A stretch of DNA of 34,165 nucleotides from positions 1-34,165 of the IMG/VR virus record IMGVR_UViG_3300032320_000196. The stretch is one strand, 5' to 3'. The DNA comes from a virus (Duplodnaviria > Caudoviricetes). The first letter of the stretch is position 1; the number at the start of each line of letters is the position of its first letter. Shown here piece by piece: positions 6,681 to 17,487 of the stretch. The notes below the pieces were generated by a model. The model was not told the DNA's origin and searched no databases. It worked only from the letters and a program-made list of their open reading frames with translations. A program made the translations under genes and the position numbers.

Positions 6681-7940
6681 TTATACCCCACTAATAATAT
6701 CTACAGGTTGCCAATCCTCACTATCATCTTCTTCCATGTAAGATGTAACAGCCAGTTGGTCAATGTAACTGAGGGAGTCAGGCAAGTCATCATGGACTCC
6801 TTGAGCAGGGAACAGGATTAACTGGTCTACAAACTCATCCCAATCTTCTTCCGAATTTAACACAATTCTGCCATGCTCGAACCTACCTTGTAAAGCCCAG
6901 ATGATTCTGTCTGCTTTTTTTCTATTCCCATGGGTCAAATCTACGATATGAGCAAAGGTGTTGTTCTTTCGCATAAGGTCTGACAAATAGGGCAAAACAG
7001 CGTTCTTTAACGCCCCCCTCTCTATCCCCACACTCAAAGGGCGGTAGTCCCGAATAGCCATCAGAATCTTGGCAGCAGTCTCTCGGATGTCCCAACGTCC
7101 ATGTTCAATCTTCTCAACAAACCACTTCCCATCGTCTGTTACCTTAACAATTGAGATCGCAGACTCGTCCAGACGCTTCTTAGCGTTAGCTGCTTGTTTG
7201 GCAACCTCCTCGAACCCTGCAAGGTCAACAGCGATGTAATAGCTTCCATGTTCAGGTTTAACCCCGTATTTGATCCACTCTTCCTTAAAGATGTCAGAAC
7301 CCGCATTGGTAAAAGAAGCCATAAACTCTTGCTTAAAAGCGAAAGAACTCAGGGTCTTTTTAGCGGAATCTATTTCTGCTTGGTCAATCAATGGGTTGTC
7401 AGCAGTGGTGAAGTGCCAAGACTTCCAATCAGGGTCATCCTCTGACTCGCCCAACTTAAAGGTGTCATAGAACCAGTTTCTACCCTTCGGAGTGCCAATA
7501 AAGAGTGCTCTCCCCCGTTTATCAGACAAACTGGCTCGGATAACTTGTTCCCATGCTTCAGGCTTAATGTCGGCAACCTCATCGAGAACGGCATAGGTCA
7601 GTGAGACACCACGAAGGGTATCAGGTCTATCCGCACCACGAACGTATATCCTAGCCCCGTTTATCAGGGTAATGTCTAAGTTGTTAACGTGACTGCTCTG
7701 AATAACCTCTCTACCAAGGTCTAGCAGTAAGTCCCAGATGATTTGACGGCTTTGTCCCATAGTGGGACTAACGTAGAGAACCGCAGAGCCTTGAGGACAC
7801 TTGAGTCCCTCAATCAGTAGGGTAACTGCCGCCATGCGTGACTTACCGCACCTACGCCCAGCAGCCACAACCTTGAACCTAGTTTGGTCTTTGAAGACTT
7901 CTTGTTGCCAAGGAAGTAGAGAGAAGTTCAGATCAGCCAT
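6681..7940 (-). CDS. terL: Terminase large subunit
   Basis: Walker A AGRRCGKS, Walker B AVLDE, GTPKG coupling motif, nuclease VDLA and HDDLPD. Confidence 0.95.
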   Translation of the reverse strand: MADLNFSLLPWQQEVFKDQTRFKVVAAGRRCGKSRMAAVTLLIEGLKCPQGSAVLYVSPTMGQSRQIIWDLLLDLGREVIQSSHVNNLDITLINGARIYVRGADRPDTLRGVSLTYAVLDEVADIKPEAWEQVIRASLSDKRGRALFIGTPKGRNWFYDTFKLGESEDDPDWKSWHFTTADNPLIDQAEIDSAKKTLSSFAFKQEFMASFTNAGSDIFKEEWIKYGVKPEHGSYYIAVDLAGFEEVAKQAANAKKRLDESAISIVKVTDDGKWFVEKIEHGRWDIRETAAKILMAIRDYRPLSVGIERGALKNAVLPYLSDLMRKNNTFAHIVDLTHGNRKKADRIIWALQGRFEHGRIVLNSEEDWDEFVDQLILFPAQGVHDDLPDSLSYIDQLAVTSYMEEDDSEDWQPVDIISGV

Positions 7941-8307
7941 ACTTAGCCTCTACATCTTCAGGTTGTTCAGTATTCTCAACAATAATCGGTTCTTGTCCCA
8001 AGCCAGTGATATTGATGGTTACGGCACTTCTCTGAGACTTGTCCTTTTCAAACAAAGAAACAGGGAGAGTCCTATCAAGACACATCTTCAAAGCTACTAA
8101 TTGATGTGGATGCTCATCATTAAGGGCTATCTCAATAACCTTCTGAGCCACATCCTTACCCCCACTCCTAATCATTAGCTCTTTAAGCTCCTTGAGACGT
8201 TGATGGTCTGTCTTAGGTAGTACAAGGGGTGGATTGTCAGCAAACCTCTGTATGGTCATCTTGACGCTCCCCTTTGGTCTTCCTCTTCCTCTTTTCAATT
8301 GTTCCAT
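7933..8307 (-). CDS. terS: Terminase small subunit
   Basis: N-terminal RGRGRPKGS, overlaps terL start, AAGGAG RBS. Confidence 0.75.
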   Translation of the reverse strand: MEQLKRGRGRPKGSVKMTIQRFADNPPLVLPKTDHQRLKELKELMIRSGGKDVAQKVIEIALNDEHPHQLVALKMCLDRTLPVSLFEKDKSQRSAVTINITGLGQEPIIVENTEQPEDVEAKYG

Positions 8308-8406
8308 TGGTTCTCCTTGGAATTGTCAATTTAGCTTTTTCTGAGGGTGGGATGTACCACAAATATCTACCAACCCAACCTACCCCCTCCCCCCCATACA
8401 TCTCCC

Positions 8407-8418
8407 AGGGTTTACCCT
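8407..8418. promoter_or_regulatory. AGGGTTTACCCT palindrome, copy 1
   Basis: Near-perfect palindrome that recurs in intergenic regions. Confidence 0.7.
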
Positions 8419-8419
8419 C

Positions 8420-8455
8420 ATGTCTTTTTATACAGTACTGGCTAAACATACAGCA
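8420..8455. promoter_or_regulatory. Tandem LexA (SOS) boxes
   Basis: CTG-GCTAAACATA-CAG at 8438..8453 flanked TA..CA; one-mismatch ATG-TCTTTTTATA-CAG at 8420..8435. Confidence 0.7.
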
Positions 8456-8470
8456 TAGGGTTTACCCTTA
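8456..8470. promoter_or_regulatory. AGGGTTTACCCT palindrome, copy 2
   Basis: TAGGGTTTACCCTTA. Confidence 0.7.
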
Positions 8471-8477
8471 CCTTGTC

Positions 8478-8500
8478 TAAATGCGAATGATTCTCATTTA
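8478..8500. promoter_or_regulatory. Fur box 1
   Basis: TAAATGCGAATGATTCTCATTTA, 11-1-11 inverted repeat with one mismatch, resembling the Fur TGATAATnATTATCA core. Confidence 0.7.
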
Positions 8501-8551
8501 CGTTTTATGCAAGTGGGAAAGAGTGATGCACCATTTTTGATGTACTTGATC

Positions 8552-8574
8552 TAATTGAGAATCGTTTGCATTTA
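8552..8574. promoter_or_regulatory. Fur box 2
   Basis: TAATTGAGAATCGTTTGCATTTA; reverse complement matches box 1 at 20/23 positions. Confidence 0.65.
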
Positions 8575-8580
8575 GCCTTC

Positions 8581-8612
8581 TAGGTGTTTACCCTCTACTA
8601 GTGTTTACCCTA
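8581..8612. promoter_or_regulatory. Two degenerate palindrome copies (3 and 4)
   Basis: TAGGTGTTTACCCT and TAGTGTTTACCCTA. Confidence 0.55.
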
Positions 8613-8849
8613 CTAGATCACTTGTCTAGGGCTATCCCTTTTCCTTTCGGGTAGGTTAGTTACAAACCCTATGCTTTCCAGTGGGCTATCTGTTCTATAT
8701 CCGATGCCATGCAAATACTGGTAAAGCTCCAGGATGTTTTCAAAACCCTTGCTGATATTCCCTTCACCAGCTGACAATAAAATCTGCAGCTTAGGGTTAT
8801 CTAGTTTCCTTCTAAACTGTATCGTGTCAACCTTAGGTGGTCGGGCCAT
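8613..8849 (-). CDS. Small putative DNA-binding regulator
   Basis: 78 aa with MARPPK start, divergent from the early operon; extended -10 TGCTAGAAT at 8889..8881. Confidence 0.6.
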   Translation of the reverse strand: MARPPKVDTIQFRRKLDNPKLQILLSAGEGNISKGFENILELYQYLHGIGYRTDSPLESIGFVTNLPERKRDSPRQVI

Positions 8850-8893
8850 TGTCTAAACCTTAAATAATTAAATTAAAATAATTCTAGCATCTA

Positions 8894-8935
8894 AGGGTTT
8901 GTCCTAATAGTTTTTTCTTTTTTTGTTGTTACTAT
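8894..8935 (+). promoter_or_regulatory. Early promoter: palindrome plus extended -10
   Basis: AGGGTTTGTCCT at 8894..8905; TG-T-TACTAT at 8927..8935; no -35 hexamer. Confidence 0.65.
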
Positions 8936-8978
8936 CCCTATACGTTCACAGTGAACGGGTAACTTAATAGGTGTCAAC

Positions 8979-9194
8979 ATGAAATATACAAAAGCTGTAG
9001 ATGTTTGGTCATTGTCTCAAGATCAGCGCAAACAATTACAAATTGGCCAATGGGTTATGGCAGGATCATCTAAGGGCCAATGGCTGGGCCAAAAGGCATC
9101 GGGTTCGGATGTTGCCGCATGGCATCACAAGGGAATTAAGGGCTGGAAATCTAAGGTTTCAACCCTTCGGGCCTATGCCAAAAACTGGAGCTAA
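8979..9194 (+). CDS. Early hypothetical protein (Trp-rich)
   Basis: 71 aa, AATAGGTGT leader. Confidence 0.75.
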   Translation: MKYTKAVDVWSLSQDQRKQLQIGQWVMAGSSKGQWLGQKASGSDVAAWHHKGIKGWKSKVSTLRAYAKNWS

Positions 9195-9197
9195 ACC

Positions 9198-9293
9198 ATG
9201 AAAAACACTTTTTTAGACTACATCACAGCCATTGCAATTGGCCTTCTACTTTGCATCGGTTTAATGGCATGGTTTGACATCCTGGTCAAATAA
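9198..9293 (+). CDS. Single-TM microprotein, 31 aa (MKNTFLDYITAIAIGLLLCIGLMAWFDILVK)
   Basis: Hand-translated; GGAG RBS. Confidence 0.65.
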   Translation: MKNTFLDYITAIAIGLLLCIGLMAWFDILVK

Positions 9294-9325
9294 TCTTAAA
9301 TTTTCTTTTTTAAATAGGTGTTCAC

Positions 9326-9760
9326 ATGGCAAAATTATCAGTACATGGGCAGGAAATTGGCAGAATTACAGCGTTGACTAGCGTAAAAGCTTATTTCAGC
9401 GATGGCAAAATTCTAAAAAATATCGGGTTTGGCTGGAAATTACATGCAAAAGTAAAAGAGGGTATCGATCCCAATTTTGCTTATGAAAAAGCGGTAACCC
9501 GTCAAAATGATTTTTTTGAAGGCAAACCAGCCCTTAAAGAGTATAAAAAAGCTTTGCATTCGCTTGCTGGGGTGAATAAACGCTGGAAATTGCACCAAAC
9601 CATTACCCTAATGTATGACGATAGCGATGGGGTTTGGTCAGAATGTTGCGATGGTTACAGCGAAAACGTACACGCTGATATCGATGAAATTTCACAATTG
9701 TGCGCTTTATATGTTGAAGCGCTGAATGAGATGAAAGAATTAACCGCTGAAACCGCTTAA
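9326..9760 (+). CDS. Early hypothetical protein
   Basis: 144 aa, AATAGGTGT leader. Confidence 0.75.
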   Translation: MAKLSVHGQEIGRITALTSVKAYFSDGKILKNIGFGWKLHAKVKEGIDPNFAYEKAVTRQNDFFEGKPALKEYKKALHSLAGVNKRWKLHQTITLMYDDSDGVWSECCDGYSENVHADIDEISQLCALYVEALNEMKELTAETA

Positions 9761-9832
9761 GGGTTTTTACTGATTTACTAGGGGTTTCATGCCCCTAGAA
9801 TTGTATTTTTTTAATATTAAATAGGTGTTCAT

Positions 9833-10480
9833 ATGATCAAAATCTCTCAAACTTCAAAATTAAATGCTAGATCATGGAGCTTGCAAGCCCTTGATACGTG
9901 CCCAGGCTCATGGGCTGCACCAGGTGAATTAGTAGATGCTTGCAAGGGCTGCTATGCCACTACGGGAAATTACAATTATCCTAATGTAAAAGCCCCAAGA
10001 TTGTCTAATCGGGAAGACTGGCAGCGTTTAGACTGGGTTTCCGATATGGTTAGTGAACTAGATCAAGATCGTTATTTCCGCTGGTTTGATTCTGGGGACG
10101 TTTACACTCTCGGGCTGGCTGAGAAAATTCTAGAAGTAATGATTCAAACCCCATGGGTGAACCATTGGCTGCCAACTAGGATGCACAAATTCCCCAAATT
10201 TGCCCATGTTTTCGCTCAAATGGAAGCTTTGCCCAATGTAAAGGTTAGATTTTCCAGCGATTCTATACAGGGTGAATATATTGAAGGTTTGCATGGTTCT
10301 GTTATTGGCCCTGATGCTGCCACATTTCAGGCAAGGGCTGGGGTTCAATTGTGCGAAGCTTATTTGAATGGGGGTAACTGTAACGGCTGCAGGGCTTGCT
10401 GGTCTAAAGATGTCCCACTGATCGCTTACCCTGCCCATGGCCAAAAAATGGCACGAGTTATCAAGTTAAAGCAAATTTGA
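9833..10480 (+). CDS. GP88-like Cys-rich (radical-SAM-related) protein
   Basis: TCPG...CKGCYA, FRWFDSGD, HWLPTR and C-terminal CNGCRACW motifs. Confidence 0.75.
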   Translation: MIKISQTSKLNARSWSLQALDTCPGSWAAPGELVDACKGCYATTGNYNYPNVKAPRLSNREDWQRLDWVSDMVSELDQDRYFRWFDSGDVYTLGLAEKILEVMIQTPWVNHWLPTRMHKFPKFAHVFAQMEALPNVKVRFSSDSIQGEYIEGLHGSVIGPDAATFQARAGVQLCEAYLNGGNCNGCRACWSKDVPLIAYPAHGQKMARVIKLKQI

Positions 10481-10490
10481 GGGGTTAAAA

Positions 10491-10661
10491 ATGTCACAAA
10501 TTGAAGCACTAACACAATGTCTAATTTTAGCCCTTACCGCTCCAAACGATAAAAAAGCCGATCAGGCAAGCGAACTAGCGGAAAAAATAGCCTTCGGGTT
10601 ATCAGCTGATCAAGTTGAAGCTTGCAAATTTGAAGCTCTAGAATTTGTGGGGTTTGAATGA
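10491..10661 (+). CDS. Hypothetical protein, 56 aa (MSQIEALTQCLILALTAPNDKKADQASELAE...)
   Basis: Hand-translated; GAGGGG RBS. Confidence 0.7.
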   Translation: MSQIEALTQCLILALTAPNDKKADQASELAEKIAFGLSADQVEACKFEALEFVGFE

Positions 10662-11677: not shown

Positions 11678-11918
11678 TTCTTTCCCTCAATAATGCAATG
11701 GCTTGCCCTACTGCACTCTGTTGACCTAAGTTTTCGTTATAAAACAAATCTGTTAGTTCATCACTGGTTAGCCCAATCCAAGGGCGTTCATGCTTTGCAA
11801 CCAGTTCGGCAAAGGCTTGTAATTGCTCAGTGTAAAAAGAGTAAATGTATTCACCATTTGGATGAACACCAAAGGCGGCAGTTTGCTTTGCCATCTTTTC
11901 GAGTTCATCTAGCTTCAT
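11664..11918 (-). CDS. Hypothetical protein (LQAFAELVAKHER...WIGLTSDE)
   Basis: 84 aa, coupled; shares a motif with its neighbour. Confidence 0.7.
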   Translation of the reverse strand: MKLDELEKMAKQTAAFGVHPNGEYIYSFYTEQLQAFAELVAKHERPWIGLTSDELTDLFYNENLGQQSAVGQAIALLRERNEHD

Positions 11919-12151
11919 ACATCCTCCAACTTATAGTTGAGTTTGTGATTTTGAAACCGCATAGAAGCCTCAATGTCTAATTCTTTGAATTGTTCATCAG
12001 AGAATAGCCCAATGACGTTTCTACCCTCAAACCACACCTCTTTGATGGATTCGTTATAGGTTGTCTCTCCATCGTTTTCATACTCATAAACGACAGTAAC
12101 AATCTCGCTACCTGCGCCTGTAGTTGTGTCAAATTCCCAAGTTTTTTCCAT
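11915..12151 (-). CDS. Acidic hypothetical protein
   Basis: 78 aa, AGGAG RBS, own promoter. Confidence 0.75.
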   Translation of the reverse strand: MEKTWEFDTTTGAGSEIVTVVYEYENDGETTYNESIKEVWFEGRNVIGLFSDEQFKELDIEASMRFQNHKLNYKLEDV

Positions 12152-12174: not shown

Positions 12175-12216
12175 ATATTATCAAATTGTTTGCGTAATAC
12201 CATAGGGATTTACCCT
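12175..12216 (-). promoter_or_regulatory. Promoter: palindrome plus extended -10
   Basis: AGGGTAAATCCCT at 12216..12204; TG-A-TAATAT with hexamer at 12180..12175. Confidence 0.6.
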
Positions 12217-13013
12217 TAGTCTCCGCAAAAACAAGCAATGGTTTCTTCATTCTTGTCAAACATATCAATTTGGCTTTTCCCGTAATTCATCATTTGGGTG
12301 TAGTCGGGTTTGTCTTTTGAGAATCGACCGCCAATTTTCTTCTCTTGTTCTGCCCACCAAATAGCCCTTTCAGGTTCTCTTTGAATAATGCTTGCAAGTT
12401 GGTGTGCGCCCTTCATAAAGCACAAATCACAATTCCCAAGTGGCGTTACTTTGTCCCTGAATTCAATGCCCAAGTCAAAACTATGATTCTTCCAAAAGCC
12501 CTGGACATCTGTTTGCGTGATTCCTGCAATAGCAAGTGGCGCATGGAGGGTTTCTCTCAGCTTTACCACCCTTCTCGGTTCGTCTGCCCTTATCCCTGCC
12601 AAGGTCTGAAATTCATCAATCCCGATTGAAGCCATGTATCGGGTAATCGGGTGGATTTTTAGTTCTGTCGTACAGAATCGCATGACAGGGTTTGGTAAAA
12701 ACTGCTTGCTGGCAATGATTTCAGCAAATGGTTCGCCATTCCTGCTTGCAGTTTCATAGTTAACCACCTTGAACTTAGGCTGATCTTTAGTGAATTCAAG
12801 CCAAACAATCGGCACATTCCAATGCTTTTCTATGTCTCTTACAAAATCAAGGGTGGCTTCGTGTTCTTTTCCAGTATTGCAGAAGATAGCCTTTGCTTCG
12901 GGCGGTAGGCTCATGTGGTGAGCTTCTAAAACCTTGTAAAGCATAAAAGCAGAAGTTCTGCCACCTGAAAAGCTAATTACAGTTGGCTCTAAGATTTCAA
13001 ACGGGTTTTTCAT
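12216..13013 (-). CDS. PAPS-reductase-family (PP-loop) protein
   Basis: SFSGGRTS PP-loop, NTGKE, RFCT..LK, GIRADE, GNCDLCF; likely start MKNPF coupled to rusA. Confidence 0.85.
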   Translation of the reverse strand: MKNPFEILEPTVISFSGGRTSAFMLYKVLEAHHMSLPPEAKAIFCNTGKEHEATLDFVRDIEKHWNVPIVWLEFTKDQPKFKVVNYETASRNGEPFAEIIASKQFLPNPVMRFCTTELKIHPITRYMASIGIDEFQTLAGIRADEPRRVVKLRETLHAPLAIAGITQTDVQGFWKNHSFDLGIEFRDKVTPLGNCDLCFMKGAHQLASIIQREPERAIWWAEQEKKIGGRFSKDKPDYTQMMNYGKSQIDMFDKNEETIACFCGD

Positions 13014-13438
13014 TCCAAACACTCCTTAACGCAAATATCAACACCTGGCAGACTCGAATAAACCTTCGTAACGTGGATATTTATGATCTGCGAGTCGTCA
13101 TGGTAGACAACCCCATTCATGCCATCTTCTACACTTTTTAGGATATTGCTTGCGTCAGGCTTCTTTGTTGGCTTCTCTGTCCCGTTATCAATGGCTTCTA
13201 GTCGCTTTTTGGTGCATGACTTAGGGATTGGCACTCGAATGTACAGATAAAGGCTCACAGGGGTTTCTAGCGGTTCTGAGCTGCCCATGGCCTCGATTGC
13301 AGCATCTTTGATTAAAGTCTCATAGGTTCTTGTCTTCTCAGGGGTGTAAGTTTGCACAAAGTTTCCCCTCTTGACGTATCTAGCCCTTTGTTTGCCAACA
13401 GGGTTAGCGTCTACTTTAAAATTGACCATGAATGTCAT
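13010..13438 (-). CDS. rusA: RusA Holliday junction resolvase
   Basis: KPDASNILKSVEDGMNGVVYHDDSQI catalytic motif. Confidence 0.9.
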   Translation of the reverse strand: MTFMVNFKVDANPVGKQRARYVKRGNFVQTYTPEKTRTYETLIKDAAIEAMGSSEPLETPVSLYLYIRVPIPKSCTKKRLEAIDNGTEKPTKKPDASNILKSVEDGMNGVVYHDDSQIINIHVTKVYSSLPGVDICVKECLE

Positions 13439-14992: not shown

Positions 14993-15168
14993 TTGTAAAG
15001 GTTCTCCAGGTTGATTGTTCGGTTTAGATGGAGTTCTAGCGTTCTGGCAAGCAAAGCTGTTACAGCCGCATCAAAGTCCTCTGGTTCGGTTGTATAAGCA
15101 TCTGTCATTGTTTGAGAGTACCCAAGCAAGGCTTCAGCGCATCTTTTTTCAAGTATTTCAGTTTTCAT
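14989..15168 (-). CDS. Hypothetical protein, 59 aa (MKTEILEKRCAEALLGYSQTMTDAY...), probably leaderless
   Basis: Hand-translated; ATG 7 nt after -10 TAGTAT; coupled to the wHTH gene. Confidence 0.7.
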   Translation of the reverse strand: MKTEILEKRCAEALLGYSQTMTDAYTTEPEDFDAAVTALLARTLELHLNRTINLENLYK

Positions 15169-15175
15169 GCTCAGA

Positions 15176-15248
15176 ATACTACTGTTGTTTTTATGCTTGT
15201 CTATTAGGGTTTATCCTAGTATAAAAAGATAAAAAGGTGTGGCACATT
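15176..15248. promoter_or_regulatory. Divergent promoter pair sharing a central palindrome
   Basis: TAGGGTTTATCCTA at 15205..15218; minus -10 TAGTAT at 15181..15176; plus TG-G-CACATT with hexamer at 15243..15248. Confidence 0.6.
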
Positions 15249-15291
15249 ATGGGTGTGGGCAAACAGTAGCCCACGTTTAACAGGAGTAAAT

Positions 15292-17103: not shown

Positions 17104-17487
17104 ATGAGTTTACTAACAAATGTGTATTTCAAAGATACGTTTGATAAGGTCTTTGGGACATCTATCAAATCAATGGCTAGACGCAACGATCTTGACACTT
17201 CTCATGAAGCGGCAAGGGATGCCTCTAAAAAAGCCCCCAATCATCGTTTAATCGCCTTGCAAGCCCTTTCTGAACATGGGCCTATGACTGACTTTGAGTT
17301 AGCAAATAAAACAGGTCTGCAACAGAACTCCATTGGCAAACGGAGGAAAGATTGTCAGGATATTGGATTGGTGGATTTCTATAGCCCCGATGGTGAGAAA
17401 GAAAGAAGGCAGACGCCTTCTGGAAGTAGTGCTTATGTTTGGCAAATAACAGAACTTGGTAAAAAGTTCTTGGAGGTAATAAAGTAA
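17104..17487 (+). CDS. Winged-HTH protein
   Basis: ARRNDLDTSHEAA motif then GPMTDFELA...KRRKDC. Confidence 0.75.
   Translation: MSLLTNVYFKDTFDKVFGTSIKSMARRNDLDTSHEAARDASKKAPNHRLIALQALSEHGPMTDFELANKTGLQQNSIGKRRKDCQDIGLVDFYSPDGEKERRQTPSGSSAYVWQITELGKKFLEVIK

What the first reader, a model, noticed from the sequence alone, without database searches (positions are those of the whole stretch)
8407..8612. Dense array of host stress-regulator sites beside the packaging genes: multi-input sensor or TF decoy
Seen: about 205 bp tiled in the order palindrome (8407), SOS-like (8420), SOS (8438), palindrome (8457), Fur (8478), Fur (8552), palindrome (8581), palindrome (8599). Established: CTG-N10-CAG is the beta/gamma-proteobacterial LexA site and the AT-rich 7-1-7 repeat is the Fur site. 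The phage encodes no recognisable LexA, Fur or CI. Inference A: late-operon transcription is gated by host DNA damage and iron status, a lysis decision without a phage repressor. Inference B: replicating genomes titrate LexA and Fur to derepress host recombination and iron uptake, a DNA-only auxiliary function. Inference C: host proteins coat a genome end near pac to protect it or assist entry. This is the best candidate for an undescribed system in the window.
Basis: partly seen in the sequence, partly recalled or inferred. Interest (0 to 1): 0.88.

Follow-up and report, generated by a model that had tools for sequence, protein, structure and literature searches.

The report
Swappable host-protein docking strip beside terminase
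A freshwater phage carries, right beside its DNA-packaging genes, a dense strip of sequences matching the binding sites of several unrelated bacterial proteins, and close relatives swap these sites freely, so the strip likely works by coating a genome end with host proteins rather than by sensing stress.

Summary
The array is real: 9 sites in 250 bp, against at most 2 elsewhere in the genome and at most 4 in 60 shuffles. The LexA and Fur labels hold in betaproteobacterial genomes. The unnamed palindrome resembles a FixJ/NarL-type response-regulator site. In 51 relatives the same slot, between two conserved landmarks upstream of terS, has 42 different layouts in 52 sequences. Tandem XerD half-sites replace the Fur box almost exclusively (1 both, 12 XerD only, 31 Fur only); others carry DnaA boxes or other palindromes. 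No conserved sigma-70 promoter lies in the slot. Other phage lineages share the geometry: a further palindrome array lies upstream of terL in 59 of 80 loci and never on the other side. T5-like terminal repeats and the DLP12 cos carry similar sites. Interchangeable, functionally unrelated sites argue against a DNA-damage/iron logic gate. Best reading (0.45): host proteins coat DNA beside the packaging cut and cap or anchor the genome end. The terminus, binding and function are untested; a late-gene gate (0.25) remains open. This scan noted the Fur part before on other DNA; none of the notes returned described the multi-factor swapping.

The parts
6681..7940 (-). Terminase large subunit
   Evidence: PHROG 2, E 1e-48; Pfam PF04466/PF03237 on relatives
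7933..8307 (-). Probable terminase small subunit (inferred from position and size; N-terminal AT-hook-like motif)
   Evidence: Overlaps the terL start; no family hit; AT_hook in 15% of one look-alike cluster
8383..8395 (.). Conserved C-tract (G-tract on the terS strand), left landmark of the cassette, about 75 bp upstream of terS; candidate packaging cut or terminus (inferred)
   Evidence: Found in 56 of 58 sequences with enough upstream DNA; logo
8407..8418 (.). P box, FixJ/NarL-type response-regulator-like site
8420..8435 (.). LexA-like box, one mismatch; on the minus strand it holds a TATAAA 30 nt from the centre of the P box at 8457
8438..8453 (.). LexA box CTG-N10-CAG, 18 bp from the first; host lexA/recA tandem boxes are 17-19 bp apart
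8457..8468 (.). P box
8480..8498 (.). Fur box; in 12 relatives XerD-arm sites (mostly tandem) stand in the cassette instead of a Fur box
8525..8549 (.). Conserved GCACC-(W)TTTT-N-TACTT box, right landmark; candidate cut site or late-promoter element
   Evidence: Found in 45 of 52 cassettes; logo
8554..8572 (.). Second Fur box, inverted relative to the first
8583..8639 (.). Three degenerate P boxes (8583, 8600, 8628)
8979..10661 (+). Small genes transcribed away from the cassette (probable early region; includes a GP88-like gene at 9833-10480)
12204..12216 (-). Single P box at activator distance from a conserved -10 hexamer, upstream of ORF 11915-12151; internal comparator for a normal regulatory use of the same site
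   Evidence: P box in 22 of 24 sequences; -10 at 30-31 nt in 20 of 22

Best explanation
The stretch is a hypervariable cassette of tightly tiled sequences matching host LexA, Fur and FixJ/NarL-type sites, fixed between two conserved landmarks upstream of terS, and it likely acts as a docking strip that loads host DNA-binding proteins beside the predicted packaging cut, so that the linear genome end would be coated as it is cut or enters the cell. Shown: the sites, their density and fixed slot, their match to host motifs, and free exchange among relatives, including XerD half-sites and DnaA boxes that belong to no stress regulon. Inferred: that the terminus lies at the C-tract or the GCACC box (or that the cassette is a short terminal repeat between them); that the host proteins bind; and that occupancy, not the identity of the protein, is what is selected, shielding the end from end-loading nucleases or sensors and/or holding entering DNA against back-sliding. 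Turnover would follow from shifting hosts or host states, with tiles reshuffled by recombination.
For: 42 layouts in 52 cassettes; P in 45, LexA in 40, Fur in 33, XerD arm in 13, DnaA in 4. XerD versus Fur: 1 both, 12 XerD only, 31 Fur only, 8 neither (related sequences, so not independent). Pairs at 90-95% terL nucleotide identity average 56% cassette identity and share a layout in 7 of 118 pairs. 190 sites versus 6 in non-coding DNA further out. Exact tandem XerD arms in IMG/VR: 31 loci, 26 with this clade's terS/terL, 29 next to a C-tract. Host checks: the XerD-arm pattern occurs in 97 of 151 genomes, mostly once; Fur-type hits sit before TonB-dependent receptors, FeoB, TonB or FecR in 8 of 18 loci; LexA boxes precede 8 of 9 lexA/recA genes. 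No conserved sigma-70 promoter in the cassette (mean Z -0.37 toward terS, 0 of 48 at 10 bits or more). Other lineages: T-palindrome arrays lie upstream of terL in 59 of 80 loci and in 0 on the other side, 8 TerL lineages; exact Fur boxes 17 upstream and 2 on the other side. In T5-like phages with annotated repeats, LexA+DnaA+Fur tiles lie 470-1050 bp inside the repeat's right end. In DLP12 a Fur box lies 4 bp from cosQ on the side away from terS (cos labels recalled).
Against: The terminus is not mapped: only assembled contigs were available, with no coverage step and no pile-up of contig ends at one base. No cultured relative exists. With headful packaging only some genomes would end here. 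RecBCD displaces most bound proteins (recalled), so protection against it is doubtful. Perfect LexA boxes in viral contigs generally are not terminase-linked (5 of 80). The T palindrome is not enriched in host genomes (18 sites versus 27 control), so some tiles may bind phage proteins. The P box also works like an ordinary activator site at 12204. 6 of 52 cassettes show one tile or a single tile type only. No binding or phenotype was tested.
Confidence: 0.45

Rival explanations
1. Late-gene gate: the cassette overlaps or follows the late promoter. Host proteins occlude it or roadblock transcription until replication out-titrates them (a copy-number timer in which any binder will do); in some alleles a FixJ-type activator drives it and LexA/Fur repress it.
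For: The phage has one long late operon starting at terS and no recognised RNA polymerase or late activator. In the window, the P box at 8457 has TATAAA at the same 30-nt distance as at the 12204 promoter, under the LexA boxes; 16% of cassette P boxes versus 5% of random positions have such a hexamer. CtrA sites in phage repeat/gap regions were shown to regulate transcription (PMC9437464).
Against: Only 12 of 43 cassettes have that geometry, and the same 16% appears in the opposite direction. No sigma-70 excess. In T5-like, T7-like and DLP12 cases the sites are beside a terminus but, except in DLP12, not upstream of terS. XerD is not a transcription factor (established knowledge).
Confidence: 0.25
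2. Packaging aid: bound host proteins bend DNA or stall the motor or replication next to pac, helping terminase pick or finish the cut, as IHF does at lambda cos.
For: Same positional evidence: fixed slot, 59:0 orientation, Fur beside cosQ. Two conserved landmarks flank the cassette.
Against: Cassette length varies from 70 to 180 bp among most members without fixed phasing, and tile identity is free, unlike the fixed IHF site of lambda cos (recalled).
Confidence: 0.12
3. Decoy: replicating genomes titrate LexA, Fur, FixJ, XerD or DnaA to reprogram the host.
For: Strong near-consensus sites in multiple copies; DnaA or XerD titration could hamper host replication and segregation (inference).
Against: A decoy need not sit at the terminase; the non-coding 250 bp further out holds 6 sites versus 190. 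No single regulon is kept in all relatives. Two Fur sites per genome is little against thousands of Fur molecules (recalled for E. coli).
Confidence: 0.1
4. The P-type repeats are sites for a phage protein (TerS or the winged-helix ORF 17104-17487), and the other tiles are passengers reshuffled at a recombination hot spot.
For: P-like boxes also sit at other phage intergenic gaps (8894, 12204, 14550, 15206); a possible phage wHTH exists; host enrichment of the P box is modest, 36 versus 15.
Against: Host P boxes are mostly intergenic (27 of 40 loci) and often clustered, and they resemble published FixJ sites. 39 distinct LexA tiles keep both ends while the middle drifts (partly circular, since they were found by pattern). 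Passengers would not be oriented in other lineages.
Confidence: 0.08

Closest known systems
Phage T5 injection stop signal / Repeat Region 3 (Davison, bioRxiv 10.1101/866236)
   Same: Non-coding tiled array of host-protein-type sites at a terminal-repeat boundary. T5-like My1, BSP22A and Sepoy carry LexA, DnaA and 4-7 Fur matches there.
   Different: T5 has a 10-kb repeat and two-step entry, and its order is conserved; the paper names only DnaA boxes (0 'LexA'; the 'fur' hits shown were other words). Here the cassette abuts terS in a 34-kb podophage and its content is freely swapped.
CtrA-site clusters in DTRs and gap regions of alphaproteobacterial phages (Mascolo et al. 2022, PMC9437464)
   Same: Host regulator sites concentrated in terminal repeats or gap regions, with turnover among close relatives.
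   Different: One factor, tied to promoters and shown to regulate transcription; no DnaA asymmetry was found there. Here several unrelated factors, including non-regulators, substitute for each other with no conserved promoter.
Fur box beside cosQ of lambdoid prophage DLP12; IHF site in lambda cos
   Same: A host site within tens of bases of the packaging cut, on the side away from terS.
   Different: A single site in a cos phage; lambda IHF has a fixed architectural role (recalled).
LexA-controlled phage promoters (GIL01, CTX, SPC32H antirepressor; cited in PMC9437464)
   Same: Host LexA boxes in a phage upstream of an operon.
   Different: Those are temperate switches. This phage has no recognised integrase or repressor, and 12 of 52 cassettes lack LexA boxes.
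FixJ binding sites (PMC4999443)
   Same: The P and p tiles resemble the SELEX class GTAGTTTCCC and the natural site TAAGTAATTTCCCTTA.
   Different: Those data are from Alphaproteobacteria; the betaproteobacterial binder is not identified.

Membership tests
LexA (SOS) operator, beta/gamma type | CTGT-N8-ACAG matching sites upstream of host lexA/recA | tested here: met
   8 of 9 lexA/recA upstream regions carry the box with at most 1 mismatch; the miss is the genome without LexA over cut-off
LexA (SOS) operator, beta/gamma type | Overlaps a promoter and represses it | tested here: inconclusive
   No conserved sigma-70 promoter; promoter-like geometry in 12 of 43 cassettes including the window
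Fur operator | 19-bp AT-rich inverted repeat that marks iron-uptake genes in the presumed host group | tested here: met
   66 strand matches versus 6 control in 5 genomes; TBDR, FeoB, TonB or FecR next to 8 of 18 loci
Fur operator | Iron-dependent binding | not testable with these tools
   Needs EMSA or a titration assay
FixJ/NarL-type response-regulator site | Likeness to the published consensus and intergenic enrichment in hosts | tested here: inconclusive
   Resembles FixJ sites; 36 versus 15 control in 151 genomes; 27 of 40 loci intergenic; beside a PAS kinase or NarL-type regulator in a few loci; binder not identified
dif recombination site (relatives' X tile) | XerD arm sequence | tested here: met
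   Matches the arm of a pattern found in 97 of 151 genomes, mostly once (dif layout recalled)
dif recombination site (relatives' X tile) | XerC arm inverted 6 bp away | tested here: not met
   Tandem direct XerD arms without a XerC arm in most cassettes; full dif-like spacing only in a few (L021, L081, L192, L196, L211)
T5-type injection stop signal | Long terminal repeat, two-step entry with A1/A2, conserved order of DnaA boxes | tested here: not met
   34-kb genome, no A1/A2 hit, DnaA boxes in only 4 of 52 cassettes, order not conserved
Packaging site / genome terminus | Virion DNA ends map here | not testable with these tools
   Only contigs were served; contig ends do not pile up at one base
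Structured non-coding RNA | Rfam match or conserved fold | tested here: not met
   0 Rfam matches at E up to 1; fold z -2.6 in the window, but layouts differ among relatives

The most novel reading that the evidence does not exclude
Many tailed phages carry a DNA-only end cap: an evolvable strip of sites for whatever abundant host DNA-binding proteins are at hand (LexA, Fur, response regulators, XerD, DnaA), placed at the packaging cut so that the naked linear end is dressed in host protein before any phage gene is expressed. This would hide it from end-sensing defences or ratchet it into the cell, and would explain the T5 injection stop signal and the Fur box at lambdoid cos as cases of one rule.
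Probability: 0.35. Interest if true: 0.92.

Novelty: new variant of a known kind. Interest (0 to 1): 0.76.

Why it matters
The clade is large (about 2200 IMG/VR stretches hold a terL pattern), and the same geometry recurs in at least 8 terminase lineages. If occupancy rather than signalling is the point, phages have a gene-free way to protect or draw in their DNA in the first seconds of infection. Phage-made end-binding proteins can expose a phage to Gabija (PMC12407980, abstract), which gives a reason to borrow host proteins instead. It also makes the unexplained repeats of the T5 injection stop testable by swapping tiles, and the tile set may help predict hosts of uncultured phages.

Tried and rejected
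Terminus mapping: all 22 runs were contigs, with no read-start data; flat depth of about 100-117 in the likely source run is uninformative; 9 of 45 contig ends fall 37-197 bp upstream of terS but at no common base. Cultured relatives: none (TerL under 30%, portal no hit, capsid about 33%). Host naming: only one relative lies in a betaproteobacterial MAG (L081); the other six hits are in unrelated bins or distant, so the host is inferred from the motif set. Combined exact patterns LexA+Fur and XerD+Fur found 0 viral contigs (too strict). An exact Fur 19-mer is in only 2 of 151 host genomes. The T palindrome is not enriched in hosts, so its binder is unassigned. Perfect LexA boxes in viral contigs are mostly ordinary prophage SOS genes (12 loci with an IMS polymerase) and not terminase-linked. 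Coding role rejected: cassette lengths fall in all three frames. Non-coding RNA rejected. Replication origin considered unlikely: DnaA boxes in 4 of 52. The last five rows of the promoter list were slicing artefacts or off-target hits and were redone. Ten literature searches of the open-access library returned no paper on mixed host-site cassettes beside terS; subscription journals and preprint supplements were not searchable.

Full report
Setting. The window is a whole, circularly closed phage contig (123-nt terminal overlap). It has terL, portal, capsid, tail, lysis and replication genes, and no integrase, repressor or RNA polymerase by PHROG/Pfam. The 124-aa ORF at 7933-8307 is taken as terS by position. 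No cultured relative was found. Near matches come mainly from freshwater runs. One relative lies in a betaproteobacterial MAG (L081), so the host is inferred, not shown.

Observation. All eight elements are there, plus a ninth at 8628. Nine sites lie in 250 bp; the best elsewhere is 2, and 60 genome shuffles reach at most 4. The patterns were partly fitted to the window, so the independent test is the relatives.

Relatives. Of 80 IMG/VR loci fetched with terL, 5 had no terS match and 18 too little upstream DNA. Of the remaining 57 plus the window, 2 lacked the anchor and 4 were duplicates, leaving 52. In these the sites sit right after a conserved C-tract about 75 bp upstream of terS, and in 45 they run up to a second conserved box, mostly 107-180 bp away. 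The first 250 bp hold 190 sites; a non-coding 250 bp further out holds 6 (n=49). The content is a mosaic: 42 layouts in 52; P in 45, a P variant in 27, LexA in 40, Fur in 33, a XerD-arm tile in 13, LysR-type dyads in 9 (label recalled), DnaA boxes in 4, a T palindrome in 2. Pairs with 90-95% terL nucleotide identity average 56% identity in the cassette and share a layout in 7 of 118 pairs. XerD arms and Fur are nearly exclusive: 1 both, 12 XerD only, 31 Fur only, 8 neither (related sequences, so the p of 6e-6 overstates it). An exact scan for the tandem XerD arms gave 31 viral loci, 26 with this clade's terS/terL and 29 beside a C-tract.

What the tiles are. These were tested in genomes of the same order as the MAG holding L081. 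LexA: the box precedes 8 of 9 lexA/recA genes, with tandem spacing of 17-19 bp against 18 bp in the phage. Fur: 66 strand matches versus 6 control in 5 genomes, next to TonB-dependent receptors, FeoB, TonB or FecR in 8 of 18 loci. XerD arm: the dif-type pattern occurs in 97 of 151 genomes, mostly once (one row is an unpublished genome, G024). P box: 36 exact matches versus 15 control in 151 genomes, outside long ORFs in 27 of 40 loci, and no excess in the five genomes behind L082-L086, one of them a Janthinobacterium with 0 matches. It resembles the FixJ sites quoted in PMC4999443 (passages). The binder is a lead, not an identification. The T palindrome is not enriched in hosts (18 versus 27).

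Is it a promoter? A sigma-70 scan with recalled base frequencies shows no excess in the cassette in either direction (mean Z -0.37 and -0.61; 0 of 48 reach 10 bits). The phage gives an internal comparator: a single P box at 12204 is kept in 22 of 24 sequences and sits 30-31 nt from a TAnnnT-type hexamer in 20 of 22, the geometry of an activator site. Cassette P boxes mostly lack this (mean -10 score 0.4 versus 4.5). However, 12 of 43 cassettes, including the window, have one P box with such a hexamer toward terS, lying under the LexA boxes. That keeps a late-gene gate open, and how this phage turns on its late operon is unexplained.

Other phages. A blastn of the array hit isolates mainly through the Fur box. 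In T5-like My1 and Sepoy, whose terminal repeats are annotated, LexA, DnaA and Fur matches are tiled 470-1050 bp inside the repeat's right end. In T7-like CRP-143, three Fur boxes lie between terL and the record end. Among the 80 loci fetched with flanks from each IMG/VR scan (of 112, 122 and 120), my TerL profile found terL within 2.5 kb on the downstream side of the site in 59 T-array loci (0 on the other side; 8 lineages at 50% identity; Fur, DnaA, LexA, XerD or P tiles nearby in 12, 16, 7, 5 and 5), in 17 Fur loci (2 on the other side; 5 of the 17 belong to this clade, and the profile was seeded from this set), and in only 5 perfect-LexA loci. The last result limits the claim: LexA boxes in phages are usually ordinary SOS operators.

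Mechanism. A DNA-damage sensor, an iron sensor, a likely response regulator, a recombinase half-site and the replication initiator share no signal; they share tight, sequence-specific binding by conserved host proteins. Free substitution in a fixed slot beside the packaging genes fits selection for occupancy at that place. I commit to a docking strip that coats the DNA next to the packaging cut, capping or anchoring the end (0.45). Shown: sites, slot, exchange, orientation. Inferred: terminus position, binding and benefit. End-sensing nucleases exist (PMC12904381, passages), and phage-made end binders sensitise phages to Gabija (PMC12407980, abstract), which would favour borrowed proteins. Against it, the terminus is unmapped, and RecBCD clears bound proteins (recalled). 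Rivals: late-gene gate or copy-number timer 0.25, packaging aid 0.12, decoy 0.10, phage-protein sites with passengers 0.08.

Known and new. Davison (10.1101/866236; abstract, first sixth of the text and passages) describes DnaA boxes in the T5 injection stop and does not mention LexA. PMC10644984 and 10.64898/2026.04.02.716235 (passages) add no Fur or LexA; the former says functional tests are lacking. Mascolo et al. (PMC9437464; passages and one section) show CtrA sites clustered in repeats and gaps, with transcriptional effects. PMC13327599 (passages) added little. Ten searches of the open library returned no description of an interchangeable multi-factor cassette at terS; subscription papers and preprint supplements were not visible. 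Earlier notes of this scan reported Fur sites near phage termini on other DNA. It works like the T5 repeat region and the CtrA clusters but is a member of neither. I rate it a new variant of a known kind, interest 0.76, with a 0.35 chance of the broader end-cap rule.

Noticed in passing
window 12204-12216: Single P box at activator distance from a conserved -10 hexamer in 20 of 22 sequences; suggests a host response regulator (or a phage factor) activates a middle promoter.
   Followed up: partly
window 15168-15253: Divergent gap with a P-like box inside the 17-bp spacer of a TTGTCT / TATAAA promoter-like pair; further P-like boxes at 8894 and 14550.
   Followed up: no
window 17104-17487: Small ORF with a weak winged-helix (MarR/IclR-like) signal; the only candidate phage regulator seen.
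   Followed up: partly
L470-L549: Tandem arrays of a roughly 20-bp palindrome (T tile) lie upstream of terL in 59 of 80 viral loci across 8 TerL lineages; the binder is unknown and the motif is not enriched in sampled hosts.
   Followed up: partly
L192, L196, L211 (within about 110 bp of the Fur match), L081 841-861, L021: Full dif-like sites next to Fur or DnaA boxes just upstream of the terminase genes; could also serve multimer resolution or integration.
   Followed up: no
L088 2040-2570; L090 1872-2140; L346 1362-1680: The T5-like repeat region holds a near-perfect LexA box and 4-7 Fur matches besides the published DnaA boxes.
   Followed up: partly
L345 1450-1545; L347 1442-1548: phi92/phAPEC8-like myoviruses carry 4-5 tandem Fur matches in annotated repeat regions; relation to termini not checked.
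   Followed up: no
L042, L077 cassette; L020, L034, L044 cassette: Other unassigned tiles in the same slot: TGTCCTA direct repeats and LysR-type T-N11-A dyads.
   Followed up: no
L082 upstream of terL; L005, L012, L028, L038, L050: Extra DNA between the C-tract and terL in some relatives (about 160 bp, or an HNH-like ORF by eye in L082).
   Followed up: no
window 12216-13022: PAPS-reductase-like gene in the replication module.
   Followed up: no
window 8300-8950 in runs X2, X3, X12: Summed contig depth falls from about 10,000 over terS/terL to mostly a few hundred across the cassette and gap at 85% likeness, as expected of a hypervariable island in a very abundant population.
   Followed up: partly
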